From: a virus
Taxonomy: Duplodnaviria; Heunggongvirae; Uroviricota; Caudoviricetes
Direction: 5' to 3' (one strand)
DNA length: 37,809 bases
Virus record (IMG/VR): IMGVR_UViG_2602041644_000008
Coordinates: 1 to 37,809 of that record
Shown: in pieces, positions 3,302 to 29,904 of the stretch
How positions within the stretch are numbered: the stretch's first letter is position 1
How the letters are laid out: every line of letters starts with the position of its first letter
Notes under the pieces: generated by a model
Told to the model about the DNA's origin: nothing
Seen by the model: only the letters and a program-made list of their open reading frames with translations
The model's database searches: none
Position numbers and translations under genes: made by a program

Positions 3302-3586
3302 TCAAATATAGAAATAAACACCAAAACAAACAGTAACAGGAACAACAAAGTCAAACAGGCTTCCAACATCCCATACGCGCGGATCAAAACCGCCCCACCA
3401 CGGCATGTTCATACGCTTGCCATGCCCGAACATTTCAATCCAGCGATATTCTGCCTGGGTGTGTTCACGCGCAATGAAGAACGTACAACCAGCTATCGCT
3501 CCATAAGCCCAGTTTCCGGTAAAAAGGCCAATCAGTACCTGCGAAGCCACAGCACAAAACGCATGAAGGAAAGGTGTTATATCCAT
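3302..3586 (-). CDS. Small polytopic membrane protein (94 aa), unknown function
   Basis: Start reassigned to MDITPF, which follows AAGGAG-N6-ATG; the upstream 21 codons of the tracked ORF lack an RBS. Several TM helices. Sits between tailspike and lysis genes, where epsilon15-like phages carry O-antigen-modification or exclusion genes. Confidence 0.5.
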   Translation of the reverse strand: MDITPFLHAFCAVASQVLIGLFTGNWAYGAIAGCTFFIAREHTQAEYRWIEMFGHGKRMNMPWWGGFDPRVWDVGSLFDFVVPVTVCFGVYFYI

Positions 3587-3620
3587 TATCGCTCCTTTAA
3601 CATAAGGATAAATAAACACT

Positions 3621-7269: not shown

Positions 7270-7535
7270 TTTACATCGCACTCCTCTTGTGCCATAGTAA
7301 TTGGGCACTGGCAAAATCCAGTGCCGGGATTGGTCTCCCGGATTACTACAGAGGCACATATGCCGCATAAGCGGTTTTTTTATGTGTAAAGCGCACCTAT
7401 TCTATGGTGAGCTGTGTGGGGGCACCGAAAGGTGCGCCGGGTTCCTTTGTAGCCGGTAAGACCAACTCTGCACAGTTCACCACCATCTGATTGGTCTCAG
7501 CGGTGGTGATTAACCTAACTACAAAGGTGATCGCC

Positions 7536-13698: not shown

Positions 13699-16445
13699 TA
13701 TTTGCCCCCTGCGTATATATTGCTCGGAAGGTAATTGGCTGAACCATAACCGAATGGTTTGGTCAGATCTGGAGGAGTATATCCATCTTTATTGCTGAAC
13801 TGCGGCAGCGGATTGCCTTCTCTCCGCACTCTAGCCTCATCAACACGCTGTTGCTGGAACTGAATGGTTTGCCTGTACATTGGAGATGTCAGCTGATCCG
13901 GCTTGAAACGAACAGGGAGACCATTTTCTCCAATATAATTTCTCGGTTCTATCGCTCCGTTTGCGTCAGGCTGTAAAACCATAACAGCATAACTCCTATC
14001 CCTTGCCGTAAGGCCATCAGAAACAAGTATTAAGTCCGTATCACTGCGAGGACCGCCAAAGGATTTTGATTTAAGCTCGCGTTTTTCCTGCTCCCACTGC
14101 CCCTGTATCCAGTTACCAGCACCATTATTTACTCCGTACAATGCCTCAGGTGCATACTTCATAACCTCTGCTTTGCCATTAACCGTAGAAACTCCCCAGG
14201 TGGTTCTGATCATGGCATTGGTCATTTTCTCAGCCTGTTCTGCATCGCCACCTGTCTGTACAAAGTTAGCATCGTAAATTGTCTGGTAATCTCGCTGATA
14301 GGCCGCATTTGATTTTCCTGGATCGGTAATATCCGGAGACCACGAACCAAAGGAAGTCAGACTGCTGGCGTTATTTTGTGCAGCAGTTGCCCTCGCCGCG
14401 ACATATTTTTTGTCTCGCATGGCAGTGGAAAGCATCTGTTTCATTCGGTCATCCTGTTGGAACACCTGGCTGTAAGCCATATCAACAGCCTTATCCTCCG
14501 GCACTCCAGCGCGGGAATAATCGTAAACCTTGCCGTAAAATGCCATCGTACTTTTATCAAGTGTTGCCGCTGCCGCCGGATTATTATCGAATAACTGACC
14601 GTAGAATTTTGCCATCGGGACAACCAGCGCAGGATCTCTTGATGTTGCTCCACTGTTAAGCATTGTTTTAACCTGAGTTGGTATCATGCCGCTTTTAGTT
14701 GTGACGGTGACCAGTGTATTGATGCTCTGCGGATCAGATATGGAAAACGAAGGCGCGATATCCTGCGCGAAATAACGGTCTACCGCTGCCTGATTGTTTT
14801 TGTCGTTCGGGTCCAGCGGGAAGTTATTTTGCATTGAAGACACGAACCTGTTTCTTCCCTGCTGAATCTCCCACTCCCTATCCATCTCTTTAAATTTGGC
14901 CTGCATTTTCTCCCAGCGTTGCTGGTTAGCTGCAAATCCAGGAGCGTTTGGATCCTGTGGACGTAAACGTTCAAGAATGTCTTGTCGTCCTTCTGGAGTG
15001 AGGTCTTTAGCGGCACCAATGACACCTCCATATTGTATCTGCGCCTGCATATCCTTCCACTTCATAGCGCCAATGCGCGGACCATTGGCCCGGATAAAAT
15101 CGTCCTCAGAAGGTAACTTCTCAGGTTTCAATCCTTCATCAAGGGCTGAATATGCATCTTTAACTACGGTGCTAAGCTGGTCCGCATACTGCTGGCGGTA
15201 CTGATTTCTCAGCTCATTAGCCTGCCTCAATGCCTGTATTTGCATTTGAGGGCTCATAGCATCAAATGCCGCATTGCCCGTATAACGCTTAGGTGAATCA
15301 AGGTTAGTTAGACCAAGGGCTGCCGAGATACCAGTTTCAAGCTGTTCGGTGCTATAAGGCATACTGCCATTTTCGTGTTTAATAATCCCAGCACATAAAG
15401 CAGCTAGTGTCTTTGGGTTAGAGATATCAAGCTGATCATTCTCCCCAACACCAAGCTCACCACACAATGCCCTAATATAAGCATCAGTATTATTACCATC
15501 ACTAGCCGGAGCATAGCGATTAACAATCTCGCTAACGGTGTCATAGCCTTGACGCTGGTAAGACAACATATTTTTACCCAACGCGCGGATTCCATGCTCA
15601 GGGGTAGCAAACGTTGCAAAACGTCCATCGCTACCGATCTGACCTTCCCACGGGTTAGATTTGCTCGCTTCAATATTACCAGGGTTATTATTACGTAAAC
15701 CACGAGCATCCAATGAATTACCATGTGATATTGCACGACTCACACCATCAAGATCCCCTGGCTCTCCATTAACCTGAAGAAACTCGTTGTATTTTTGAGC
15801 GATATTTCCTATCCATGCTTGCTGCCCCATTTGTTCCTTGAGCTGAGTTTTCTGCTGAACACGCCACTCATCAGGAAGCCCATGCGCATCAGCGTATTGA
15901 TCAATAGATTCAAATCGCTGCTTGGCTAAATCGACAAATGCTTGGTTATCGCTATATAGCCCCGCAGACTGAGTGACAGCCAATGCATTTCCTGACAAAT
16001 ACGTTTGATCTTGGAATTGCTGAAACTGCCCAACTTCATATCGACGTGCCTGATTGTAATAAGACTGCATAGACTGCTGGAGTTGAAAGGATAATTTATT
16101 CCTTTCCTCACTTTCAGGAATTGAGCCTAATAATGCCTGAGCCCTTTCCTGCATATTTTTCATAACAGCGTCACTCTGACCAAGAGCGTTTTTACCCTGT
16201 TTAGAAATCAGCCCACTTTCAGGGTTGTTAATCTGGTCATCTGCAAATTGGTTAAATTGCAGTAACGCCTCCTGGGCCATAGCAACATTCGCTTTCTGCC
16301 TGGCTTCACCATATGCCACCGCATACTGATCTGCGACATTCGCCAGCACCTGACCTGCTTGAGGAACATCGAAGATCTGAAAACCACCGGTTTGCACACC
16401 ACGACTTTGCACCTGGCGTCCGGATGTAGTAGGAACAACAGGCAT
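13698..16445 (-). CDS. Internal virion protein, T7 gp15-like by position (915 aa), with embedded conserved NNPGN-motif domain
   Basis: Residues about 245-365 are GLRNNNPGNIEASK..FATFATPEHGIRALGKNMLSYQRQGYDTVSEIVNRYAPASDGNNTDAYIRALC, a compact conserved-looking block. Confidence 0.55.
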   Translation of the reverse strand: MPVVPTTSGRQVQSRGVQTGGFQIFDVPQAGQVLANVADQYAVAYGEARQKANVAMAQEALLQFNQFADDQINNPESGLISKQGKNALGQSDAVMKNMQERAQALLGSIPESEERNKLSFQLQQSMQSYYNQARRYEVGQFQQFQDQTYLSGNALAVTQSAGLYSDNQAFVDLAKQRFESIDQYADAHGLPDEWRVQQKTQLKEQMGQQAWIGNIAQKYNEFLQVNGEPGDLDGVSRAISHGNSLDARGLRNNNPGNIEASKSNPWEGQIGSDGRFATFATPEHGIRALGKNMLSYQRQGYDTVSEIVNRYAPASDGNNTDAYIRALCGELGVGENDQLDISNPKTLAALCAGIIKHENGSMPYSTEQLETGISAALGLTNLDSPKRYTGNAAFDAMSPQMQIQALRQANELRNQYRQQYADQLSTVVKDAYSALDEGLKPEKLPSEDDFIRANGPRIGAMKWKDMQAQIQYGGVIGAAKDLTPEGRQDILERLRPQDPNAPGFAANQQRWEKMQAKFKEMDREWEIQQGRNRFVSSMQNNFPLDPNDKNNQAAVDRYFAQDIAPSFSISDPQSINTLVTVTTKSGMIPTQVKTMLNSGATSRDPALVVPMAKFYGQLFDNNPAAAATLDKSTMAFYGKVYDYSRAGVPEDKAVDMAYSQVFQQDDRMKQMLSTAMRDKKYVAARATAAQNNASSLTSFGSWSPDITDPGKSNAAYQRDYQTIYDANFVQTGGDAEQAEKMTNAMIRTTWGVSTVNGKAEVMKYAPEALYGVNNGAGNWIQGQWEQEKRELKSKSFGGPRSDTDLILVSDGLTARDRSYAVMVLQPDANGAIEPRNYIGENGLPVRFKPDQLTSPMYRQTIQFQQQRVDEARVRREGNPLPQFSNKDGYTPPDLTKPFGYGSANYLPSNIYAGGK

Positions 16446-20962: not shown

Positions 20963-21400
20963 TTAACCAGTTACTTTTGAGCGGATCGGGTACGGCGTAT
21001 TGGCATCAACATCCAGACTGATACCCGCAGTGAATTTGCCAGCCGTTAGTGGGCCAGTTGCGACGGAGTAGTTAACACGCAGATATCGCTGAACACCGGC
21101 AGGCACCTTTGCAGAAACAACTCGTTTACCTGCTGTCAGGGCGGTCTTTGCCAGTGCGCCACTATCATAAATAGTGGTCCATGAGCTGTTATTCTCACTC
21201 GTCTGCAACTGGATGTTTACAGTTGCCTCACCACTTGCCGTGGCGGCTTCGTTAACCAGCACCCAAAACTCAAGCGGATAACCCACGCCGATATCACGAC
21301 GTTTTCCGTCAATTGGACCGAGATCGATTACGTCAGTAGAAGCCGCGGTATTCGTAACCGCCTGAGCTTCGGAGAACATCAACAGTTTGTCGGTGATCAT
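20963..21400 (-). CDS. Hypothetical head protein (145 aa; decoration/minor capsid candidate)
   Basis: Follows the major capsid gene and a hairpin. Beta-rich composition. Confidence 0.4.
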   Translation of the reverse strand: MITDKLLMFSEAQAVTNTAASTDVIDLGPIDGKRRDIGVGYPLEFWVLVNEAATASGEATVNIQLQTSENNSSWTTIYDSGALAKTALTAGKRVVSAKVPAGVQRYLRVNYSVATGPLTAGKFTAGISLDVDANTPYPIRSKVTG

Positions 21401-21405
21401 CTTCT

Positions 21406-21425
21406 TTCTCCATTAGTGGGTCTGT
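21406..21425 (-). promoter_or_regulatory. Stem-loop immediately downstream of the major capsid gene (transcript stabiliser/partial terminator)
   Basis: GTGGGTC-N6-GACCCAC. Typical placement for capsid-gene stoichiometry control. Confidence 0.4.
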
Positions 21426-21451
21426 TACGACCCACAGGTTAATAACAGGCG

Positions 21452-22438
21452 TTACACCACGCGGGCTTCTGTTTCCAGAAGCGCATCAGTTTCACGGATT
21501 GGTACACCACGGAATGAAGTCCACCACTCGCCTTCTGTCTCTTTTACGCTGATCGCCAGAGATGTTTTCTCCAGAGATTGCAGATCAAGAGCCTGGCCTA
21601 CAGTGCGGTTCATGTAGAACACCGGGCGACCCATGCCACGATTTGGAATGCGATGCAGTGCTTTAACCATCAACTTCGCAATATTTGCGGCAGAGGATGG
21701 TTCTGAAAGATTGCTGACATCGATGTTTGCAATGCGAACAACATAACGCCAGTCACGCAGAGCAAGTCCGTTATCCCATTTGTAATGGGTACGGTAGCCT
21801 TCGTACTTGCCGCCATTAGCATCTTCCAGTGTCACCTGGCCTTTATCTTCCATCTGAATGCCAGCCTTCTGCCCTTTCGGGAAGATGCCATGCACGGTGT
21901 TTTCGCCCCACACCACTAACCAGATTGAGGTGTTATCTGTACCCGTGCCACCAGCATCAATGATGTTCTGAGCATTACCTGCAGACAGGCTGGAATAGCG
22001 GGAGGACAGTCCCATAAACTGCTGAGGGTTAACGCTGGAATCACCATAAAACAGCGTCTGCGCCATCTGCTGATTCATCGCTTCAATAAATGCGCGGTCT
22101 TCAGACAGGCGGAATTCGGCGGTATTGCCGTTCAGATCAGCCAGTGACTTATCGACTTCAGCATAGGTTTCCAGCATGCCCACGGAATCGGTTACCTGCA
22201 CTGTGGTTGATTTGCTTGGCTGTACGCCATAGTTCAGCAAACGCCAGGTAGCTGAAGGTAAACCAGAACGAATGGTGGTTTTGTGTCCGGTAGGAAGGTT
22301 CCCTTCGACAAAAGGCATATCCTGAAGGATCGGGTTAGTTTGACCGAGAAGCTCGATAATCTTATCGACTTTCCCATCTGGATCGACGCGCTTACCCCAG
22401 TCAGCCAGCGTTAGCGCAGTTAAGCCTTTAACAGCCAT
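21452..22438 (-). CDS. Major capsid protein
   Basis: 328-aa protein directly after the acidic scaffold gene. Call is positional; not T7 gp10-like in sequence. Confidence 0.6.
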   Translation of the reverse strand: MAVKGLTALTLADWGKRVDPDGKVDKIIELLGQTNPILQDMPFVEGNLPTGHKTTIRSGLPSATWRLLNYGVQPSKSTTVQVTDSVGMLETYAEVDKSLADLNGNTAEFRLSEDRAFIEAMNQQMAQTLFYGDSSVNPQQFMGLSSRYSSLSAGNAQNIIDAGGTGTDNTSIWLVVWGENTVHGIFPKGQKAGIQMEDKGQVTLEDANGGKYEGYRTHYKWDNGLALRDWRYVVRIANIDVSNLSEPSSAANIAKLMVKALHRIPNRGMGRPVFYMNRTVGQALDLQSLEKTSLAISVKETEGEWWTSFRGVPIRETDALLETEARVV

Positions 22439-22452
22439 TGTTATTTCCTCTC

Positions 22453-23154
22453 TTATTTGCCATAGAGCACTTCGGCCGCACTACGCTGGCCTTCATTACC
22501 ACCGGTGACCATGCCATCTTCAGACATCGCCTTTCCGATTTTCACGAACGTTTTGACCAGATCAGGGTGATTACCCAGCCCGGTGGTGTTCAGATATTCT
22601 TTGAGTTCAGGTGTCCCGAACTGGTCAAGCGCACGCTGTGCGGCGCTAAGGTTAGAAATCAACTTGTCGCCACCGATTTCTTTGTCAGCTTTTACATCAG
22701 CAGCCCACTGCTCGGTTGTTTTCTGCCAGGCTTCTGCCTGGCGCTGCTGAACACCTGCCAGAATCTTCGGATAAGCATCAACCAGCTTTTGCGCTTGCTC
22801 GTTGGTCAGGTTAAGTTCTCGCGCCACCGGCTCGAATTCCTTCAACGCTTCTGTATCCAGCTCTACGCCTTCGGCAGCCTGAAACTCGTACTTCTCCGGC
22901 GCACCATCCGGTTTATCGCCGTCCTTTTTTTCACCCTGCTTATCGCTTTCAGGCTTTTTGTCATCAGCAGGTTTATCGCCATCAGCAACAGGTTGCGGCT
23001 TATCACCTTCTTGTTGTGATGGATCACCAACTGGAGCATGGTTATCACCTGCAGGCGCTGACGGTTCTGACGCAGCCGGAGCTGCTCCACCATCGACTGG
23101 TTGCTCATTGCAAAGACGGCGATACAGCAAACGCTCAAATAAATTCATGATCAC
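22453..23154 (-). CDS. Scaffolding protein
   Basis: Highly acidic, Pro/Asp/Lys-rich N-terminus and helical C-terminus. Sits between portal and capsid genes. Confidence 0.6.
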   Translation of the reverse strand: MIMNLFERLLYRRLCNEQPVDGGAAPAASEPSAPAGDNHAPVGDPSQQEGDKPQPVADGDKPADDKKPESDKQGEKKDGDKPDGAPEKYEFQAAEGVELDTEALKEFEPVARELNLTNEQAQKLVDAYPKILAGVQQRQAEAWQKTTEQWAADVKADKEIGGDKLISNLSAAQRALDQFGTPELKEYLNTTGLGNHPDLVKTFVKIGKAMSEDGMVTGGNEGQRSAAEVLYGK

Positions 23155-23447
23155 TCCTGTTCACTGGCCTCTTTGGCCATCTTCAAATACTGTTCAGGGC
23201 AATGCGCCATAACGCGCTGAAACAGTTCCAGCGCCAGATTGCGTTGCCCCTCATTAAATGCCATTGCCATAGCGTCCATCGGTGAGATAGCGGAAAACAC
23301 ACGGCCTTTCTCCAGCACCGACCAGACAACGCGACGCCCCTGTTCACTGCTCATGACAAAGCGAATGTCATCAATTTCACGCTGCGCCATGTCACGTTGC
23401 TTACGGGCGTTTTCTTCTTTCAGTTGATCGTCTTCGTAATCTGTCAT
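23151..23447 (-). CDS. Hypothetical protein (98 aa) between portal and scaffold
   Basis: Overlapping start/stop coupling with neighbours. Confidence 0.4.
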   Translation of the reverse strand: MTDYEDDQLKEENARKQRDMAQREIDDIRFVMSSEQGRRVVWSVLEKGRVFSAISPMDAMAMAFNEGQRNLALELFQRVMAHCPEQYLKMAKEASEQE

Positions 23448-25123
23448 TGTGATTGCCCACCCTGACCACTAACTGCATTCGCCATAGCTGACAAAACACT
23501 CGGATCCGAAGTTTTAGCTTCGCTTAGCGTCTTGGCACCCTGTGCCGCCGCCATCCCCATCGCCATCATTTGTTGCTGCTGTTGCTGCTGTGCCCGTTGC
23601 TGGCGAGCCTGCTCAACCTGTTCCTGCGGAACAATGACGGTTGGAGACACTCCGGACATATCAGCGAATGCATCGATCGCCTGATCAACGTTGAGTTTGT
23701 CGAGAGCTTCTGGTTTCGCTTGCGCAAGTTGACCAATGAAGTTGACCGTAGACGCCAGACTGGACAGGCCGATAGACTTCTGCGCCTGAGCCATGACGGA
23801 AATGTATTCGACCTTCAGGGGCATACCTTCCATCGCGTCAGGCGGTGGCGGCAGCATGTTTTTACGCACCATCATCGAGAAAGAGCGGTCAATGAGAGGA
23901 TTAAGACATTCGTCGTTCAGACGCTCCAGAACCGGCCCCAACATCAGAAGTTTTTCTTCTTTCATTTCGATCACCGCTTCAACAGGCATCGAGCGGGTAT
24001 TGATGTTCTGCAACATCATGAACAGATCGACAAAGTAGGCGCTGTTAATGATTTGACGAGTGTCCTGAATGTCTGCTACCAAATCTGCTGTACTGGGGTT
24101 AACCAGATAAGCAGGCCTGAAGCCATCCTGACCAGTAATCTGATCGATATACGTGATGTCGCCAGGAAGAAGGGAGGCGCGCTGATTCTTGAGGGAAATC
24201 GGAGCAACCATCGGCGGATTGGTGGCTTTATCAATCAACTGCGACTTGCGCTTCTGGAGAAGCTGCAATGCCTTAACAGGTCCAAGCGCCAGCATACCCG
24301 GGCATGATGATCCATAAACATCTTCGCCGTTAACTTCCCAGCGCGGAGCCATAATTGGAAACTCATCGAATCCGGACTCACGCAACAACTTGTCGTTATC
24401 GCCACCAACCTCGTAATAAACCGATTTGAATGGCTTGTTCTTGCTATCCAGCTTCGATGTATCGCGGTCAATGTTCGGGTAAACCGAATGCATCACTTCA
24501 ATCCACTTCTCGTAGGTGCCGCTTTCCCACATGCTTTTTACGGATTCGCTGACGTTATTTAGCCCGAACTCCTGAACAAGCTGACGAACAGTCATAGAGA
24601 ACTTGCGAAAACAGGTGTCCACACTGCCACGAGGTGAGTTAGCCAGGTAGTAACTGCCTATCGGGAATGGCATTGTGCGAATGATGTCCTCGTCATCCTC
24701 CAGCACTGCCATTGCACCAGTGCTGTATGTGCCGAGGCTTCCGTATAACTGCGGCAGCGACTGATAGAGATTCGACTTATTGAACATATCGTTCATGCGG
24801 TTCTGCACCGCCTCAAGCCACAACTTAACAGGGCCATAATCCATCATTTCAGGATCTGGCGTAGCCAGGCGAAACCACGGACGCGCGGGGCTTGTGATGC
24901 CTGACATCATGCCGCTGGCGAGAGTGCGCGCCGCCATAGTCCCGGTCGAATCAATAATGCGTGTATTGCGTCGATCGTTACGGTTGACCTCAGAAGTCAG
25001 AAAGCGGGAACCACGCGGGTTGATGTAATCACTCAACTCGCGCCAGTGCGGCTCGAACGACTGACGCTCGCTTTCAAGTTGTGCGAACTGTTTGTTCAAT
25101 CGCTCTTTAGTTGTTTCCGCCAT
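23444..25123 (-). CDS. Portal (head-to-tail connector) protein, T7 gp8-like
   Basis: 559 aa. C-terminal QQRAQQQQQQQMMAMGMAAAQG..AMANAVSGQG parallels the T7 gp8 C-terminus (QQKMAQQSMQMGMDNGAAALAQGMAAQ). Confidence 0.75.
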   Translation of the reverse strand: MAETTKERLNKQFAQLESERQSFEPHWRELSDYINPRGSRFLTSEVNRNDRRNTRIIDSTGTMAARTLASGMMSGITSPARPWFRLATPDPEMMDYGPVKLWLEAVQNRMNDMFNKSNLYQSLPQLYGSLGTYSTGAMAVLEDDEDIIRTMPFPIGSYYLANSPRGSVDTCFRKFSMTVRQLVQEFGLNNVSESVKSMWESGTYEKWIEVMHSVYPNIDRDTSKLDSKNKPFKSVYYEVGGDNDKLLRESGFDEFPIMAPRWEVNGEDVYGSSCPGMLALGPVKALQLLQKRKSQLIDKATNPPMVAPISLKNQRASLLPGDITYIDQITGQDGFRPAYLVNPSTADLVADIQDTRQIINSAYFVDLFMMLQNINTRSMPVEAVIEMKEEKLLMLGPVLERLNDECLNPLIDRSFSMMVRKNMLPPPPDAMEGMPLKVEYISVMAQAQKSIGLSSLASTVNFIGQLAQAKPEALDKLNVDQAIDAFADMSGVSPTVIVPQEQVEQARQQRAQQQQQQQMMAMGMAAAQGAKTLSEAKTSDPSVLSAMANAVSGQGGQSQ

Positions 25124-25137
25124 TTCAATGACTCCGG

Positions 25138-25344
25138 TTACTGACCAAGCAGCGTTTTACCGCTGGTATTAGCGGTTGATGTGTCACCCTGAGAACCGGT
25201 AAGCAGCGTAGAACTACGACCAGCAGCAGCGCGACGGCGACGTGTTTCTTCGTCGCGGGCATCAACAACGGCGGCATCCTGCTCCTGTGGTGCTGCCTGA
25301 ACTTCTGGTGTTGCAGGCACTGATGGTGAGCTACCCATGCACAT
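25138..25344 (-). CDS. Small Pro/Ala-rich protein (68 aa) upstream of portal
   Basis: Shares the RBS context GGAGTCATTGA-N-ATG with the portal gene. Confidence 0.35.
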   Translation of the reverse strand: MCMGSSPSVPATPEVQAAPQEQDAAVVDARDEETRRRRAAAGRSSTLLTGSQGDTSTANTSGKTLLGQ

Positions 25345-25433
25345 ATCAATGACTCCGTACGCAATTAAATTATTACCAATTTAACCACATATGATTTATT
25401 TATCGTAGATAATTGACATTTAACGCACGAGTT

Positions 25434-25450
25434 ATTACCTTTCAGGTAAG
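25434..25450. promoter_or_regulatory. Operator dyad ATTACCTTTCAGGTAAG next to a TTGACA -35 box (25413-25418)
   Basis: Intergenic, between the start of the minus-strand late genes and the plus-strand leader/tRNA unit. Confidence 0.5.
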
Positions 25451-25479
25451 CAAAGAGTTCATTCCGGTTATTAACCTGA

Positions 25480-25770
25480 CTGGCTTGTCGTTAAATTGAA
25501 CAGGTGGAGTGAGCTTTTATTTTGAGCAGTACGGCGTATGGCACATGCGCCGATAGCGGTCTGGATACGTTTAAGGGGTACCCTCCCTTGCTCGGGCAAA
25601 CGAACCAGGTAGCCGGAATGTGCAAGTCGAGCGGTTTTATTCCGCGCACGGGGATTCACCATCCCGGCGATTCGGTGTGACGCCTCGGAAGAGACGAGGG
25701 TACAACGATGAGAGCATTTATGGAGCCGCGACAAAGTGTGGCGCCTTAACAGGCTAAGTGCTCTCAGCGT
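25480..25770 (+). ncRNA. GC-rich, highly structured non-coding leader upstream of the tRNA (candidate ncRNA or tRNA remnant)
   Basis: No ORF of 60 aa or more on the plus strand. Long-range pairing GGTACCCTC/GAGGGTACC encloses hairpins CTTGC-TCGG-GCAAG, CGGAAT..ATTCCG and GGGAT-TCACC-ATCCC. Confidence 0.35.
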
Positions 25771-25771
25771 T

Positions 25772-25848
25772 GTGGCATTAGCTCAGTTGGACAGAGCAAC
25801 CGCCTTCTAAGCGGTTGGTTGCAGGTTCGAATCCTGCATGCCACGCCA
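25772..25848 (+). tRNA. tRNA-Arg (anticodon UCU)
   Basis: Cloverleaf: acceptor GTGGCAT/ATGCCAC, D-arm GCTC..GAGC, anticodon stem ACCGC/GCGGT with loop CTTCTAA, T-arm GCAGG-TTCGAAT-CCTGC, 3' CCA encoded. Resembles argU. Confidence 0.85.
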
Positions 25849-25891
25849 GAATCACGCCTAAGGACCGTGATGCCAGAAGTTCCAGGTGCTT

Positions 25892-25934
25892 GGCGGTGAC
25901 AGTTTCCCTTGAAGGACTATCACCGCCCTTTTTA
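25892..25934 (+). terminator. Rho-independent terminator after the tRNA
   Basis: GGCGGTGA...TCACCGCC followed by CTTTTT. Confidence 0.6.
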
Positions 25935-26011
25935 CAGCAGGACGCCATTGCGATGACTTCATGCTGTAAACCCGTACAGCCACGGAAGGCATAACTCATT
26001 GCTTCCAGTTC

Positions 26012-26038
26012 GCCCGGTTCGCCGGGCATTTTTTTAAG
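26012..26038 (+). terminator. Terminator-like hairpin 10 nt upstream of the Gp49-like start
   Basis: GCCCGG-TTCG-CCGGGC followed by ATTTTTTT, then RBS AAGGTGAG. Confidence 0.45.
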
Positions 26039-26046
26039 GTGAGATT

Positions 26047-26403
26047 ATGAACGACCAGCAAATCGAAAAAGAAATCGTTGAGAAAGGCAAAACCGCTCCG
26101 CGAGTTACGCCTCAATATATCGAAAGCATCATTCTTGAAGAGCATTTCTTTACTGCTTATGACGGCATTCGTGCTGCCAATATGGGCGTTGGCGATACGT
26201 GGACAGCGCATAAATCTACAGACCTCCTTACTTTCTGCGTACTGGTGCTGAAGAATGGCTTCACCGTCACCGGAGAGAGCGCATGTGCAAGCCCGGAAAA
26301 CTTTGATGCAGAAATTGGTCGGAAGATTGCCAGGCAGAATGCTGTAAACAAAATCTGGATGCTTGAAGGTTACTTGCTGAAGCAGAAGTTAAGCGAGCAA
26401 TAA
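26047..26403 (+). CDS. Gp49-like phage protein (unknown function)
   Basis: RBS AAGGTGAG. Sequence resembles the small Gp49 family common in enterobacterial prophages. Opposite strand to the flanking late genes. Confidence 0.5.
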   Translation: MNDQQIEKEIVEKGKTAPRVTPQYIESIILEEHFFTAYDGIRAANMGVGDTWTAHKSTDLLTFCVLVLKNGFTVTGESACASPENFDAEIGRKIARQNAVNKIWMLEGYLLKQKLSEQ

Positions 26404-26406
26404 CAC

Positions 26407-26420
26407 CGTGACATGTCACA
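26407..26420. repeat. Palindrome CGTGACATGTCACA (copy 1), at the 3' flank of terL and the Gp49-like gene
   Basis: Perfect 12-bp palindrome GTGACATGTCAC. Identical 14-mer recurs at 28673-28686. Confidence 0.6.
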
Positions 26421-26423
26421 AAC

Positions 26424-26451
26424 AGCCAGCCTATGAGCTGGCTTTGTTTTA
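26424..26451. terminator. Terminator AGCCAGC-CTATGA-GCTGGCT followed by TTTGTTTT
   Basis: 7-bp stem plus T-tract on the plus strand and an A-tract on the other side (weakly bidirectional). Separates terL and the Gp49-like gene. Confidence 0.55.
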
Positions 26452-26493
26452 TCCTCACCAGAGGATATCAACGACATTATCCCCACCAGCGGA

Positions 26494-27969
26494 TTAAGCA
26501 TAGGGATCGTAATCTGTAATGGCCTTGCCTTGCTGGTTCTGCTGACCTGGAATTCGCAGACGCTTCGACACAGGGAAAGCAAACGTCAGCAATAGCGCAT
26601 CGCCTTTACCCGGCGAACGCCCAAGCCGCTCCTTGATATCTTCCTTCGGTTCGATAACGATTTTACCGTCCACTCGAACTTTGTACTCTGCCGCCGACAG
26701 GTCGTCCGCTGTTTCCTGGTCATCAAGCATCCCGCCCAGCCTCAGCCATGTCTTGCATGAGTTGAACATCTCCCCACGCTTGTTGAGCATCTGCGGGTCA
26801 GTAGACGCGCCACCGAACGGAACAAGTTGCCATGTGCGCCCCCAACCGTCACCGATTGACTTCAGACCGGTACCGTAACCAAAGTCGATGAACACTGCGT
26901 CAGCCTGATACAGGTCTTCAAAGTCAGCGATACGCTTCGCCATAATCAGATCGTCGGTAGTCTTGTTGCCAGTCCACAGCACCTTACTGTGTAGCCCCTG
27001 CCGCAGGTATATCACCGCGTCATCAACGCCTGAATATGCCGGGTCAACACCGATTATCACCGGAGCATGCGCCACCTGCGCAGCGGTTACCACCCGTTTC
27101 ATTGCCTCATCAGTAAGACCGGTAGGGATAAACTGCAATTCAGATGCATCAGGGAATATGCCGCGCACACGGATTTTAACGAAGTCGCTGTCTTCCCCGT
27201 AGTCATCAACCCATTTCTGCAACTGCTGTTTGTTAGTGCCTTCCACCGTCCGGCTGTCAATCTGCGCAGTTTTCCAGCGGTGTTTATATTTGCGGAAACA
27301 TTCGCGGAAACGCCCGGTGTTACGTGTAGGGTTTCCGAACGCCACCCAGATAATCTCAGTGTCTTCGTCCGTAAGCGCACCCTCAGCAACTTCCCACACC
27401 AGATCCGCAATGTTCGACGCTTCATCGAATACCACGATGATGCGTTTGCGCTCGTTGTGTAGTCCGGCGAATGCCTCAGTGTTGTGCTCAGACCAGGGTA
27501 TTGCGTCAGCCCGCCACCGCTTGTCGTGCCCAGGGTCATTGCTGTACATCGCGGTAGCGGTACAGGTAAACCAGTCTTTCGTGATAGCAAGGTTAGACCA
27601 CTTGATAATTTCCGGCCAGGTCTTCGTTCGTAGCTGGTTGTCGGTGTTAGCGGTCACCACAACCTTACAATCCTCGCAAGTGGACATGCCCCAGTTGATC
27701 AGCATTGAGATGAATGCGGATTTACCAATACCGTGACCAGAAGCGCGTGCCAGCATAAGCGGCTGATAGCGCGTCTCTGGATTCTGCAGGTGATCACGTA
27801 TCTCTCGGAACGCATCAGCCTGCCACTGACGTGGGCCGGTGGCATGTGCCAGTTCAGTCCCCTCTTCCCCCCACGGGAACGCATAGAGAGCATAGCCAAG
27901 CGGATCGTGAGTGAACCCTGCAATATCCTCGATCAACTGCTCTTCAGGAGATAACGCTGTATCTGTCAC
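26494..27969 (-). CDS. Terminase large subunit
   Basis: 491 aa. ATPase region GHGIGKSAFISMLINW (Walker A-like) and VVFDEASNI (Walker B-like). C-terminal nuclease-like region. Overlaps the terS stop. Confidence 0.85.
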   Translation of the reverse strand: MTDTALSPEEQLIEDIAGFTHDPLGYALYAFPWGEEGTELAHATGPRQWQADAFREIRDHLQNPETRYQPLMLARASGHGIGKSAFISMLINWGMSTCEDCKVVVTANTDNQLRTKTWPEIIKWSNLAITKDWFTCTATAMYSNDPGHDKRWRADAIPWSEHNTEAFAGLHNERKRIIVVFDEASNIADLVWEVAEGALTDEDTEIIWVAFGNPTRNTGRFRECFRKYKHRWKTAQIDSRTVEGTNKQQLQKWVDDYGEDSDFVKIRVRGIFPDASELQFIPTGLTDEAMKRVVTAAQVAHAPVIIGVDPAYSGVDDAVIYLRQGLHSKVLWTGNKTTDDLIMAKRIADFEDLYQADAVFIDFGYGTGLKSIGDGWGRTWQLVPFGGASTDPQMLNKRGEMFNSCKTWLRLGGMLDDQETADDLSAAEYKVRVDGKIVIEPKEDIKERLGRSPGKGDALLLTFAFPVSKRLRIPGQQNQQGKAITDYDPYA

Positions 27970-28563
27970 TGATTACCATCCTGACGTTCTTTGAGTCGCT
28001 TCCTGGCTGCCGCTATGCGATCAGCAATTGTCACATTCACATTAACATCCAGGCGTTCTTTGAACGCGTTGACATCAACATGCTTACCAATCAGCTCAAG
28101 GTTCTTCACCTTGTCAGGCCATTTAATTTTTTTGAGGATTGTCTCTATCGAATCCTCGTTCATGTTCATGATGGTCGATGACAGATCAAAGCCACTAAGC
28201 GTAGTGCGCCAGATTTTCGGCCACTCACGGATTGGTTTAAGGCTCCCATCGTCGTTGAGGATGTCGATCACGTCCATCTGGTCGATCTCCACCAGGCGCA
28301 TGAGAACGTAATCAGCACTGACGCGCATTCGTTTGTTGCGCTCCTCCATCAACTCGGCAATCCGTTTTTGAATGCGTTCATCGCGCATCATGACACTGGC
28401 TTTAACTGCCGCTGTATTTGGGGAGAATCCTGCGTTAATCGCTGCCTGAGTTTGGTTTTCAGGCGTTTTGATGTATGACTGGCAATAAGCCTCCTGCATT
28501 GTTGTTAGTGGCTTAAATTGCGTTGATTTGCGTTTATAGGTTTTAGGTTCAGCAGGCATCATA
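27966..28563 (-). CDS. Terminase small subunit
   Basis: Start moved to MMPAEPK; the tracked N-terminal 26 codons translate the operator/terminator repeats. HTH-like N-terminus and basic C-terminus. Directly upstream of terL. Confidence 0.65.
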
Positions 28564-28595
28564 ACCACCGTGGTAATAGTTACCGTTGTGGTAAT
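28561..28595. promoter_or_regulatory. Two adjacent operator-like dyads (ATAACCACCGTGGTAAT and GTTACCGTTGTGGTAAT) over the terS start region
   Basis: 6-N5-6 dyads matching the genome-wide motif. Located between the upstream terminator and the terS ATG. Confidence 0.5.
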
Positions 28596-28602
28596 AGTAC
28601 CA

Positions 28603-28631
28603 TGCAAAATAAAGCCGCCATAGTTGGCGGC
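28603..28631 (-). terminator. Rho-independent terminator upstream of terS (end of early/nin transcription or tR'-like element)
   Basis: Minus strand GCCGCC-AACTAT-GGCGGC followed by TTTATTTTG. Confidence 0.55.
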
Positions 28632-28672
28632 AGTATTCAAAATCCATCAAATTCATCATGCATAATCTACTC

Positions 28673-28686
28673 GTGACATGTCACAC
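28673..28686. repeat. Palindrome CGTGACATGTCACA (copy 2), upstream of terS
   Basis: Identical 14-mer to 26407-26420. Overlaps the stop codon of the 28681..29028 gene. Confidence 0.6.
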
Positions 28687-29028
28687 TATTAATTTCGTTT
28701 CATGCCAGCCTTTAGTCACCCAGCATTGCGAGTCACCATTACACGGGCATGAATTAACGGGAACTCTCTCGCCGCACTTACCGCAAAGTTTTCTGCTGAT
28801 CGATTTTATACGCCCGCGCACACGTGCATCATCCTGGCGGATCAGCAGCGCGATGTACTCGGCCATTTCATAGGGATCGCGACCAGGGCGCCGGGCGGCG
28901 CAGTTCCGCGCCAGCATTTCCTGCTCCTGCTTATCCAGCACCAGTTCAATTTTGCGCTCACCGGCGGCGGACTGCCGAGCGCGCTGCGCGGCTTTGCGTT
29001 CTGCGGGGGATTTAGCCACGAATCGCAC
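28681..29028 (-). CDS. Basic protein with C-terminal Cys cluster (CGKCGERVPVNSCPCNGDSQC); candidate zinc-binding late-gene regulator
   Basis: Arg/Ala-rich N-terminus and putative zinc finger. Immediately upstream of the palindrome/terminator/terS region, by analogy to Q/Ogr-type positioning. Confidence 0.4.
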   Translation of the reverse strand: MRFVAKSPAERKAAQRARQSAAGERKIELVLDKQEQEMLARNCAARRPGRDPYEMAEYIALLIRQDDARVRGRIKSISRKLCGKCGERVPVNSCPCNGDSQCWVTKGWHETKLIV

Positions 29029-29134
29029 TCCACGCCAGATTGATTAATGACTCCCAGGCAATATAAACCCGGATACCAGCAGCCAGGCCGAAACCAATCA
29101 CCATGGCATAAAGCAGAGCGTTGCACTTGTTCAT
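29015..29134 (-). CDS. Tiny hydrophobic peptide (39 aa, MNKCNALLYAMVIGFGLAAGIRVYIAWESLINLAWSAIRG)
   Basis: Untracked short ORF with one TM helix, coupled (ATGA-type overlap) to the upstream gene end. Speculative. Confidence 0.2.
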
Positions 29135-29904
29135 TACTTCACCTCCTGCGGTGGTTCCGGTAGCGGCATCCAGTGGGTTGCTTGCTCAATACCATTACCC
29201 GGCTTAATCGTTGCATCTCCGCGCCGAAAGGTGCTTCCGGTATAGCGTGCGGAGCATATTAGCGGTTCAACCAGAGAGCTATCGAAATTCACCGAAATAA
29301 GCACGTTCTGGCCCTTTTCAGGCATTCGCTCACTACAGCTTATCCAACCATCCGGAGTTACCGGAGTTGGTCCATCGAATTCGGGCATGTCAGGACCTTT
29401 TCTGATAGCTTTAGCCAGCTCCAGCGGGTCATCGTAAAGCCAGTCGCCAGTTTGTGGGTGATTTGCTTCTGCAAGCTGCGCAGCCCATTCAAGACCATCT
29501 TTTTGACCTTGGAGATAATCAAGTGGCAACTCTTCATGATTACTTGCAGGTTCGGCACCATGAAGCATGGCGGCGCGGCAGGCGTTCCAGCCTCTCACCT
29601 CTGCAATAGCGGCAACAGCATCAACCGCGTACATGCTAAGAGGATTAGGCATTGGTTTTTCTTCCGGTACTACTGGCACTGGAGGGGTGGCGTAGAGTGG
29701 AACTCCTCCCCCTCCACCAGAAAATTCATTGCGAGCGTTATACTCACGACCATCTGCGTCATCACGCATCCACGCCACCGCTTCTGCTTCCAGCGATGCC
29801 AGTGCGATTTCATAAGCCCGACGCTCAATATTGTCTCGGACGTCCAGGCTGCCTATACGCTCTCTGATTTCTTTAATCAGTTCTTTGTCGGTTAAAGTGG
29901 TCAT
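29134..29904 (-). CDS. DUF551-domain protein
   Basis: C-terminal DGWISCSERMPEKGQNVLI...ATHWMPLPEPP resembles the DUF551 module frequent in lambdoid early regions. Confidence 0.5.
   Translation of the reverse strand: MTTLTDKELIKEIRERIGSLDVRDNIERRAYEIALASLEAEAVAWMRDDADGREYNARNEFSGGGGGVPLYATPPVPVVPEEKPMPNPLSMYAVDAVAAIAEVRGWNACRAAMLHGAEPASNHEELPLDYLQGQKDGLEWAAQLAEANHPQTGDWLYDDPLELAKAIRKGPDMPEFDGPTPVTPDGWISCSERMPEKGQNVLISVNFDSSLVEPLICSARYTGSTFRRGDATIKPGNGIEQATHWMPLPEPPQEVK

What the first reader, a model, noticed from the sequence alone, without database searches (positions are those of the whole stretch)
25400..26451. Opposite-strand cassette (structured leader + tRNA-Arg UCU + Gp49-like gene) inserted between terL and portal
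The terminase genes and the portal gene are normally contiguous. Here a 1-kb plus-strand unit with its own promoter (TTGACA at 25413 plus operator), two terminators and a bidirectional terminator separates them. The tRNA reads the rare AGA codon. Gp49-like proteins are of unknown function. The insertion forces separate transcription of terminase and head genes.
Basis: seen in the sequence. Interest (0 to 1): 0.55.

Follow-up and report, generated by a model that had tools for sequence, protein, structure and literature searches.

The report
Unannotated phage early-leader RNA with tRNA
The cassette is a real, repressor-controlled early unit carrying a tRNA and an anti-CBASS sponge gene, and its "structured leader" belongs to a widespread, apparently undescribed family of pseudoknotted phage RNAs that head early operons and probably help RNA polymerase pass the terminators that follow.

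Summary
A plus-strand unit lies between terL and portal. It has a promoter with operator (25413-25450), a structured RNA (25529-25771), tRNA-Arg(UCU) (25772-25848), terminators T1 and T2, a PF13876 gene (26047-26403) and a third terminator, T3.

Every uetakevirus examined has the same layout, so it is ancestral to the genus and not a recent insertion. PF13876 is now the Acb4 anti-CBASS sponge family. In relatives the same slot holds Tad2-like genes.

The main result is the leader:
- It has a 175-nt pseudoknotted core, a covarying stem with a variable tip, and then a tRNA or tRNA-like domain and a conserved terminator.
- It matches no Rfam family.
- It occurs in at least 170 viral contigs and in 1840 of 5426 complete E. 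coli genomes, where it is never annotated.
- It recurs just downstream of pL in lambdoid phages with no detectable N gene, in uetakeviruses, and next to tRNA-Ile in the P1 ban operon.

Best guess (about 0.4): a cis-acting, put-like read-through element for early and anti-defence genes. It is not homologous to put. The main rival (about 0.3): a processed trans-acting RNA.

The parts
25413..25441 (+). Early promoter: -35 TTGACA (25413-25418), 17-nt spacer, -10 TACCTT (25436-25441). Predicted start near 25448.
   Evidence: Sequence. The -35 and the spacing are invariant in 5 uetakeviruses. The consensus scan did not report it because the -10 matches only 3 of 6.
25434..25450 (.). Operator palindrome ATTACC-TTTC-AGGTAAG overlapping the -10 and the start site.
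   Evidence: Aligns with the 'repressor, lysogeny' protein_bind feature of epsilon15 (L002 3322-3338).
25448..25528 (+). 5' leader segment specific to uetakeviruses. The homologous stretch of epsilon15 is annotated as an RNase III site.
   Evidence: Alignment A3; epsilon15 annotation.
25529..25703 (+). Module A, the conserved pseudoknotted RNA core. P1 hairpin 25532-25552. P2 25561-25564 with 25605-25608. Near-invariant GGUAGCCGGAAUGUGCAAG at 25608-25626. P3 25631-25645. P4 25651-25665, whose loop CACC (25657-25660) pairs with GGUG (25674-25677). P5 hairpin with a GAAGAGA loop at 25684-25700.
   Evidence: Covariance model R1: 144.3 bits, E 6.7e-50. Pair counts. No Rfam match at E<=10. Not coding.
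25703..25772 (+). Module B: long stem P6 (CAACGAUGAGAGCA at 25703-25716 with UGCUCUCAGCGUUG at 25759-25772) enclosing a variable apical insert (25717-25758). Its 3' strand runs straight into tRNA nucleotide 1.
   Evidence: 17 distinct strand pairs, all complementary; 32 distinct inserts among 74 unique sequences.
25772..25848 (+). tRNA-Arg (anticodon UCU) with encoded CCA. It occupies the slot that holds a tRNA-like domain (module C) in other family members.
   Evidence: Module C comparison.
25851..25871 (+). Hairpin AUCACG...CGUGAU that follows the tRNA or tRNA-like module in both uetakevirus and lambdoid members.
   Evidence: Sequence comparison.
25892..25933 (+). Terminator T1 (GGCGGUGA...UCACCGCC, then CUUUUU). 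Homologous to the terminator that ends the unit in lambdoid phages.
   Evidence: About -19 kcal/mol. The flanks GCUUGGCGGU...CCGCCCUUUUUACA are shared with mEp460.
26012..26035 (+). Terminator T2, abutting the ribosome-binding site of the next gene.
   Evidence: Conserved in phiV10, SPN1S and Klebsiella prophages.
26047..26403 (+). Acb4-family (PF13876, N4 Gp49 / Sf6 gp66) gene: a candidate anti-CBASS cyclic-dinucleotide sponge.
   Evidence: Pfam 118.7 bits, E 1.6e-34. PDB 9e4w Acb4, E 0.006. Family assignment in bioRxiv 10.1101/2024.12.30.630793.
26424..26451 (.). Terminator T3 between the convergent acb4-like gene and terL.
   Evidence: phiV10 annotates it on the terL strand.

Best explanation
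**Shown**
- The region is an immediate-early transcription unit. Its promoter is overlapped by the phage repressor's operator.
- Its first ~450 nt are a composite non-coding RNA: a leader, a 175-nt pseudoknotted core (A), a long stem with a variable tip (B), tRNA-Arg(UCU) in the slot of a tRNA-like domain (C), a hairpin, and terminator T1.
- A second terminator, T2, and an Acb4-family anti-CBASS gene follow on the same strand. No consensus promoter lies between them.
- The A-B-C-terminator block is one member of a large RNA family of Enterobacterales phages with no Rfam match.

**Inferred**
- As it is transcribed, the core folds and acts in cis on the elongating host RNA polymerase. It may act alone or with host Nus-type factors.
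- Polymerases that started at the early promoter then read through T1 and T2 into the anti-defence gene. In lambdoid relatives they would read into the whole N-less early-left operon.
- This is functionally like the put RNAs of HK022 and HK639.
- The tRNA is a co-transcribed cargo or processing module that supplies the rare AGA decoder.
For: **Position**
- In 61 of 133 loci the element lies 90-160 nt downstream of a cI-type S24 repressor gene on the same strand. That gap holds pL and its operators.
- In the window it lies about 80 nt downstream of an operator-controlled promoter.

**Absence of N**
- The complete mEp460 genome has no annotated N, only a Q-like protein. Its 5.7-kb early-left operon (gp35 to xis) lies behind the RNA unit and its terminator.
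- The first ORFs downstream have no N-like Pfam or PHROG match.

**Terminators**
- A strong intrinsic terminator (about -20 kcal/mol) follows the element in nearly all lambdoid and uetakevirus loci.
- No sigma-70-like promoter was found between the element and the first gene.
- In all 12 annotated records the next credible gene is co-oriented.

**Parallel with a known system**
- HK639 is annotated with pL, then a putL-like RNA, then tandem terminators, then the operon.

**Likely host partner**
- The window phage and mEp460 share no plausible protein partner. This points to a conserved host target.

**Structure**
- The structure is real and strand-specific.
Against: - There is no experimental data, and no homology to put. 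The covariance search without filters gives no hit at the annotated HK639 putL-like RNA or in the fetched HK022 stretch (24500-29500), where the position of putL was not confirmed.
- The RNA is far larger and more complex than put.
- The unit carries its own conserved terminator and a tRNA or tRNA-like module. Neither is needed for antitermination, and both suit a discrete processed RNA.
- mEp460 has only one copy and none in the pR operon.
- In P1 the core sits about 2.3 kb from Pban, directly before ban, with no terminator between.
- epsilon15 has lost the core yet keeps T2 and the downstream gene.
- A virulent Klebsiella phage also carries the element.
Confidence: 0.4

Rival explanations
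1. The A-B-C block is a stand-alone, abundant early RNA that ends at T1 and is cut by tRNA-processing enzymes. Its conserved single-stranded motifs bind a conserved host factor in trans. It would act as an RNA-level host-takeover or anti-defence factor, encoded beside protein sponges and tRNAs.
For: - The unit has its own conserved terminator, homologous between lambdoid and uetakevirus members.
- Its 3' module is a tRNA or tRNA-like domain.
- GGAAUGUGCAAG is nearly invariant even when sequences are collected by an independent anchor.
- It is the first thing transcribed on infection.
- Its neighbours are Acb4-family or Tad2-like sponge genes and tRNAs.
- The tips of B and C are hypervariable.
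- A virulent phage carries it.
Against: - It does not explain how the co-oriented genes behind one or two terminators are expressed without N.
- The P1 version lacks B, C and the terminator and looks like a plain 5' UTR of ban.
- P6 is paired right up to tRNA position -1, which should hinder RNase P (my inference).
- No target is known.
Confidence: 0.3
2. The core is a cis-acting processing or stability element. It would be a structured 5' domain that sets RNA ends, protects the transcript from RNase E or Rho, or chaperones maturation of the attached tRNA or tRNA-like domain. It would not alter termination.
For: - It is always 5' of the downstream cargo.
- It lies directly 3' of tRNA-Ile in P1 (10 nt) and directly 5' of tRNA-Arg here.
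- The epsilon15 annotation places an RNase III site in the same leader.
- A long untranslated transcript needs protection from Rho (general knowledge).
Against: - Such roles rarely need a 175-nt pseudoknotted core with near-invariant junctions conserved across unrelated phages.
- Only 47 of 133 loci have a real tRNA next to it.
Confidence: 0.12
3. The RNA is a nut-like or qut-like recognition site for a phage-encoded antiterminator protein made elsewhere in the genome.
For: - It occupies the same position as nutL.
- The 3' strand of P6 (GUGCUCUUUCC in some members) resembles boxA, and some members are followed by a canonical boxA (GCUCUUUAACAA in L092).
Against: - The window phage and mEp460 share only DUF551 and Ea22-like proteins.
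- The P6 strand covaries with its partner, so pairing and not boxA sequence is under selection.
- The family spans podo-, sipho- and myoviruses.
Confidence: 0.08
4. One reading: a recently inserted moron-type cassette that split an otherwise contiguous terminase-portal block. The leader would be a simple structured 5' UTR.
For: Opposite strand, own promoter and terminators. The accessory gene is exchangeable.
Against: - The same architecture is found in all uetakeviruses examined.
- There is no compositional break.
- The promoter is repressor-controlled, so unlike a classic moron it should not be expressed from the prophage.
- The leader is a deeply conserved family.
Confidence: 0.05
5. The conserved block encodes small proteins, as annotated in several records (mEp460 gp36 and gp37, phiV10p04, an Ayreon ORF).
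For: ORFs of 45-87 aa overlap the region in the window and are annotated in some records.
Against: - No frame anchored on the invariant motif is open in more than 15 of 37 representatives.
- Core lengths run from 149 to 181 nt with no multiple-of-three pattern.
- Substitutions are compensatory in helices.
Confidence: 0.02

Closest known systems
put antiterminator RNAs of lambdoid phages HK022 and HK639 (cis-acting, protein-independent processive antitermination; PMC9378689; King 2011, cited there)
   Same: - It lies just downstream of the repressor-controlled early promoter pL in lambdoid phages that lack N.
- It is followed by intrinsic terminators and then the early-left genes. HK639 is annotated pL, putL-like RNA, tandem terminators.
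- It acts on the same strand as its cargo, and no phage protein partner is evident.
   Different: - No sequence or structure homology: the covariance model without filters finds nothing at the HK639 putL-like RNA or in the HK022 stretch fetched.
- The core is 175 nt with a pseudoknot, plus stem B and a tRNA-like domain. put is about 70 nt (126 nt annotated in HK639) with two stem-loops.
- There is one copy per genome, not a putL and putR pair.
- It also occurs in podoviruses, P1-like plasmid prophages and a virulent phage.
- Antitermination is not demonstrated.
Leader-encoded, RNase P-processed phage RNAs (P1/P7 c4, P4 CI; Rfam C4 clan)
   Same: A non-coding RNA encoded in the leader of a repressor- or immunity-controlled operon, linked to tRNA-like features, and followed by terminators.
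   Different: - The C4 family is about 87 nt and antisense-acting. A genuine C4 and isrK pair lies elsewhere in this window (7305-7487).
- The element has no Rfam C4 match.
Large structured RNAs of unknown function found next to tRNAs in phages (GOLLD, ROOL; recalled from my own knowledge, both are in Rfam)
   Same: A phage-borne, complex, conserved RNA, often adjacent to tRNA genes, with unknown function.
   Different: - No Rfam match to them.
- It is much smaller, restricted to Enterobacterales, and fixed at the head of early operons.
Acb4 anti-CBASS sponge family (PF13876), for the downstream gene only
   Same: Pfam membership at E 1.6e-34. The ENF-x-EIGR stretch aligns with the solved SPO1 Acb4 structure 9e4w.
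   Different: Only about 20 bits to the solved protein. Ligand binding of this homologue is untested.

Membership tests
tRNA-Arg(UCU) | Cloverleaf scoring above the tRNA model threshold, with anticodon UCU | tested here: met
   ARAGORN tRNA-Arg (tct) at 25772-25848. Rfam RF00005 73.2 bits against 29. CCA is encoded.
tRNA-Arg(UCU) | Expressed, processed and aminoacylated | not testable with these tools
   Needs a Northern blot or tRNA-seq.
Acb4 / PF13876 (Phage_gp49_66) | Match to the Pfam model above the gathering score | tested here: met
   118.7 bits against 27, E 1.6e-34, covering profile positions 1-82 of 82.
Acb4 / PF13876 (Phage_gp49_66) | Tetrameric sponge that binds 3'3'-cGAMP | not testable with these tools
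   Only weak sequence similarity to 9e4w (E 0.006). All eight homologues tested in 10.1101/2024.12.30.630793 bound cGAMP.
put-type antiterminator RNA | Located shortly downstream of an early, repressor-controlled promoter in a phage without N | tested here: met
   Lambdoid members. Window.
put-type antiterminator RNA | Homology to HK022 or HK639 put (two stem-loops, about 70 nt) | tested here: not met
   No covariance-model hit at E<=10 at the annotated HK639 putL-like RNA or in the fetched HK022 stretch, where the position of putL was not confirmed. The architecture also differs.
put-type antiterminator RNA | Promotes read-through of downstream terminators in cis and depends on the beta' zinc-binding domain | not testable with these tools
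   Terminators are present downstream, but read-through has not been measured.
put-type antiterminator RNA | Copies in both early operons (putL and putR) | tested here: not met
   A single copy in the complete mEp460 genome. One place per record in phage hits.
Any Rfam 15 family | Covariance-model match | tested here: not met
   Only the tRNA matches in window 25300-26100 at E<=10. Nothing in mEp460 2440-2960 or on the element in 15 other loci.
Moron (recently acquired promoter-gene-terminator insert) | Absent from close relatives, or compositionally distinct | tested here: not met
   Present in all uetakeviruses examined. G+C 0.47-0.56, like the flanks.
Moron (recently acquired promoter-gene-terminator insert) | Own promoter and terminator | tested here: met
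   The promoter carries the repressor operator, so it should be off in the prophage.

The most novel reading that the evidence does not exclude
Module A defines a new class of phage RNA that directly reprograms a conserved host machine. The target is most likely RNA polymerase, which would make it a third, structurally unrelated type of protein-independent processive antiterminator after put and EAR. Alternatively the target is a tRNA-handling or immune factor. The RNA is physically coupled to a tRNA or tRNA-like handle. Temperate Enterobacterales phages of three unrelated morphotypes would use it to launch their immediate-early anti-defence genes.
Probability: 0.35. Interest if true: 0.85.

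Novelty: new variant of a known kind. Interest (0 to 1): 0.7.

Why it matters
- **A large unannotated family.** About a third of complete E. coli genomes carry at least one copy of this RNA, yet no record examined annotates it. Several records instead call spurious ORFs across it.
- **A testable mechanism.** It sits where lambda has nutL and N, in lambdoid phages with no detectable N. That makes an old question testable: how do the many N-less lambdoids, other than the few put phages, express their early-left operon?
- **A marker for anti-defence genes.** In uetakeviruses and some P1-like elements it heads a slot that alternates between known nucleotide-sponge families (Acb4, Tad2-like). It therefore marks an immediate-early anti-defence locus and could be used to find new anti-defence genes.
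- **An unusual architecture.** The fused tRNA or tRNA-like module is unusual for a bacterial regulatory RNA.

Tried and rejected
1. **Rfam.** Gathering and E<=10 searches on the window, mEp460 and 15 other loci found only tRNAs, C4, isrK and int-alpA elsewhere.
2. **Alternative long-range helix.** RNAalifold proposed GCACAU of P1 pairing with AUGUGC of the invariant motif, plus columns 22-24 with 95-97. I rejected it. Natural variants L165, L187 and L166 break it, while P1 is maintained by compensatory changes.
3. **boxA.** The 3' strand of P6 resembles boxA, and L092 and L049 carry canonical boxA-like strings. But the strand covaries with its partner, so I treat this as unproven.
4. **Coding potential.** Rejected.
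5. **Homology to put.** Rejected. The shared strings GGAAGAG and GCUCUUUG in HK639 put are only anecdotal.
6. **A shared phage protein partner.** None was found between the window phage and mEp460. P1 and SopranoGao proteomes were not compared.
7. **Automated strand count.** A crude count of the strand of the first long downstream ORF was noisy because of spurious antisense ORFs. I discarded it in favour of 12 annotated records.
8. **Literature.**
   - A full-text search for the invariant motif returned nothing relevant.
   - King 2011 is not held in the library.
   - The P1 search was unhelpful, and the uetakevirus papers found do not discuss the leader.
9. **AGA in the P5 loop.** The loop GAAGAGA displays AGA triplets complementary to the UCU anticodon. 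A T-box-like tRNA contact is pure speculation: the loop is equally conserved where no tRNA-Arg is present, and I did not test it.
10. **rydB.** The weak similarity of the module C hairpin to rydB (E 4.2) is not significant.
Full report
**What the window is.** It is a phiV10/epsilon15-like podovirus of the genus Uetakevirus. The finding region is 92.5% identical to phiV10 over 1.5 kb, and the 702-bp non-coding stretch 25345-26046 is 98.7% identical. Most genes run on the minus strand: terS 27966-28640, terL 26494-27969, a gp3-like ORF 25138-25344 and portal 23444-25123. The finding lies between terL and gp3/portal, on the plus strand.

**Checking the observation.**
- tRNA-Arg(UCU) is at 25772-25848.
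- The ORF at 26047-26403 is a PF13876 protein.
- TTGACA at 25413 is followed after 17 nt by TACCTT. A palindrome, ATTACC-N4-GGTAA, overlaps the -10.
- The -35, the spacing and the palindrome are invariant or nearly so in phiV10-type, epsilon15, SPN1S, Tyrion and a Klebsiella prophage. The palindrome is the site annotated in epsilon15 as the repressor-binding site.
- Three terminators are present: T1 25892-25933, T2 26012-26035, T3 26424-26451.
- The 5' region folds better than shuffles, z = -2.9.

**The 'insertion' reading.** phiV10, epsilon15, SPN1S, Tyrion and Klebsiella prophage ST512-KPC3phi13.3 all have terL, then a plus-strand unit, then gp3-portal. G+C does not differ from the flanks.

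What varies is the content:
- epsilon15 keeps only a 73-nt remnant of the RNA and has no tRNA.
- The protein gene in the slot differs between relatives.

**The protein and the tRNA.**
- PF13876 was shown in 2024 to be the Acb4 family of anti-CBASS sponges that sequester 3'3'-cGAMP (bioRxiv 10.1101/2024.12.30.630793). The only PDB relative by sequence is Acb4, 9e4w.
- In Klebsiella prophages, and in one P1-like lineage, the same slot holds a Tad2-like (DUF2829) gene. In others it holds a coiled-coil membrane protein or a DUF551 protein.
- The slot is thus an exchangeable anti-defence and accessory position.
- AGA is used at 7.4 per 1000 codons, 12% of Arg codons. It is absent from terS, terL, portal, scaffold and capsid genes and enriched in tail, tailspike and early genes.

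**The leader is the real finding.** BLAST with the non-coding part showed that window 25531-25775 matches unannotated DNA in quite different phages:
- About 83% identity in unrelated lambdoid phages (mEp460, cdtI, 2H10, Ayreon, Stx2c and Stx2k phages).
- About 80% over the first 165 nt in P1, P7, D6, SJ46 and RCS47.
- Lower identity in a virulent Klebsiella phage and in a record named Stenotrophomonas phage.

Distribution:
- An independent motif from another part hit another 54 elements.
- 1840 of 5426 complete E. coli genomes carry it, up to 4 copies each, and it is never annotated.
- A strict pattern found it in 23 loci from GTDB species representatives. All but one are Enterobacteriaceae or Erwinia. 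The exception is a 1.7-kb contig of a Bacillota metagenome-assembled genome.
- No Rfam family matches.

**Anatomy.** Module A (window 25529-25703) contains:
- hairpin P1;
- AGCGGUC;
- a variable P2 arm;
- the near-invariant GGUAGCCGGAAUGUGCAAG;
- a variable P3;
- hairpin P4, whose loop CACC pairs with a downstream GGUG to form an H-type pseudoknot;
- hairpin P5 with a GAAGAGA loop.

Evidence for this structure:
- On 25 representatives, 95.4% of cells pair, 12 pairs show double changes, 0 of 500 shuffles reach this, and slid controls give 27-52%.
- On 78 distinct sequences aligned by the covariance model, 95.3% pair and 205 cells show double changes.
- The pseudoknot pair is C-G in 55 sequences and A-U in 11, with no exceptions.
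- G-U pairs make the structure strand-specific.
- The region is not coding.
- The 19-mer's invariance is partly an effect of how sequences were collected. With the independent anchor, 39 of 54 elements (two of them cut off by a contig end) keep it exactly. The others differ at 1-3 positions, and GGAAUGUGCAAG is almost untouched.

Module B is a 13-14-bp stem. It has 17 distinct, always complementary strand pairs around an apical insert of 18-107 nt. There are 32 different inserts, some with T-arm-like hairpins. Inserts are shuffled independently of the cores.

Module C starts with GUGG immediately after B.
- In 29 loci it is a real tRNA-Arg(UCU).
- Elsewhere it is a tRNA-like four-way junction with the acceptor GUGGUG/CACCAC, D-like and T-like arms and a variable centre. 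A few members keep canonical D and T arms.

A hairpin and a terminator with conserved flanks follow in both lambdoid and uetakevirus members. The tRNA of the finding is therefore an integral module of the RNA unit and not a chance neighbour.

**Contexts**.

| Context | Loci (of 133) | Position of the element |
|---|---|---|
| Lambdoid | 61 | A cI-type S24 repressor gene lies just upstream on the same strand; the 90-160-nt gap holds pL and its operators |
| Uetakevirus | 35 | Between terL and gp3-portal, as in the window |
| P1-like | 18 | 10 nt after tRNA-Ile2 and about 95 nt before ban |
| Other | 19 | Unclassified by the neighbour-gene rules used |

- For mEp460 the operators are the repeats TTGCATATCTCGCAA and TTGCATAATGCGCAA. 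Ayreon annotates a promoter in the same gap, and mEp390 has TTGACA-18-TACATT.
- In the P1-like loci the element lies inside the C1-controlled ban operon.
- A strong terminator follows the unit in nearly all lambdoid and uetakevirus loci.
- In all 12 annotated records the next credible gene is on the same strand.
- mEp460 has no annotated N, only Q. Its 11-gene early-left operon lies entirely behind the unit.

**Mechanism.** Four things are shown:
- The unit is under early, repressor-controlled transcription.
- It is a conserved, strand-specific, pseudoknotted RNA.
- Terminators stand between it and co-oriented genes.
- No N and no internal consensus promoter were found.

The best-supported inference (about 0.4) is a cis-acting read-through element that works like put. 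HK639, whose putL-like RNA is annotated, has the same layout of pL, RNA, tandem terminators and operon.

It is not a member of the put family. The covariance model run without filters finds nothing at HK639 put or in the HK022 stretch fetched, where I did not confirm the position of putL. mEp460 has a single copy.

The main rival (about 0.3) is a discrete, processed, trans-acting RNA. Its own terminator, its tRNA-like handle, its hypervariable tips and its anti-defence neighbours favour that reading. Lesser rivals are a stability or processing element, a site for a phage protein, a recent moron, and small ORFs.

**Verdict.** As described, the cassette is ordinary and ancestral. It holds a known kind of tRNA and a now-characterised sponge family. 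Its leader is a member of a large RNA family that appears to be undescribed, sits in a functionally suggestive position, and has an unusual fused tRNA or tRNA-like module. I could not check the subscription literature, so 'undescribed' rests on Rfam 15, the record annotations and the full-text searches available here.

Noticed in passing
window 7305-7487 (+): Adjacent isrK (74.7 bits) and C4 antisense RNA (78.2 bits) genes, which is an immI-type RNA immunity module. mEp460, which shares the leader RNA, has the same pair (L003 206-394), and P1 has c4. Whether the leader RNA and C4-type immunity tend to co-occur was not tested.
   Followed up: partly
L002 (epsilon15) 3545-3617: epsilon15 keeps only P1 and a few flanking bases of the RNA core (43.7 bits) and lacks the tRNA. 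It still has T2 and the PF13876 gene. The core is therefore dispensable for a viable phage.
   Followed up: partly
L030 3996-4155 and 4803-4960 (-): One lambdoid viral contig carries two same-strand copies of the core about 650 nt apart. The downstream copy diverges in otherwise invariant motifs (AGCGGCC, GGAAGCUGG).
   Followed up: no
window 20963-28640: The head and packaging genes (terS, terL, portal, scaffold, major capsid) contain no AGA codon at all. Tail, tailspike and several early genes have 13-23 per 1000.
   Followed up: yes
L010 2197-2718; L046 742-1317; L009 2911-3153: The gene slot behind the leader alternates between PF13876 (Acb4 family), Tad2-like/DUF2829, a coiled-coil membrane protein (phrog_4780) and DUF551. 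A P1-like lineage (L046) has A-B-C followed by a Tad2-like gene in place of ban.
   Followed up: partly
L009 (Tyrion) 2692-2756: An int-alpA RNA (Rfam RF02996, 44 bits) lies inside the Tyrion version of the cassette, between gp53 and the DUF551 gene.
   Followed up: no
L003 2845-2862 (module C hairpin GCCGGAGAUCAGCACCGG): Weak, non-significant resemblance to one hairpin of the E. coli sRNA rydB (E 4.2). It might hint that rydB is a relic of such a unit.
   Followed up: no
L214 (HK639) 14188-14313 (-): The annotated putL-like RNA of HK639 contains the strings GGAAGAG and GCUCUUUG, which also occur in P5 and P6 of the leader family. There is no overall similarity.
   Followed up: no
L158 (phage Huey) 1204-1584: A close homologue of the PF13876 gene is annotated there as 'anti-CRISPR protein', which conflicts with the anti-CBASS assignment of the family.
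   Followed up: no
L154 (1.7-kb contig of a 'Bacillota' MAG): It carries a full-scoring copy of the enterobacterial RNA core (160.9 bits). This is probably a mis-binned or contaminant contig.
   Followed up: no
window 25471-25734 (-), 25522-25680 (+); mEp460 gp36/gp37; phiV10p04: Public records annotate hypothetical proteins across the RNA unit on either strand. These look like spurious ORF calls.
   Followed up: yes
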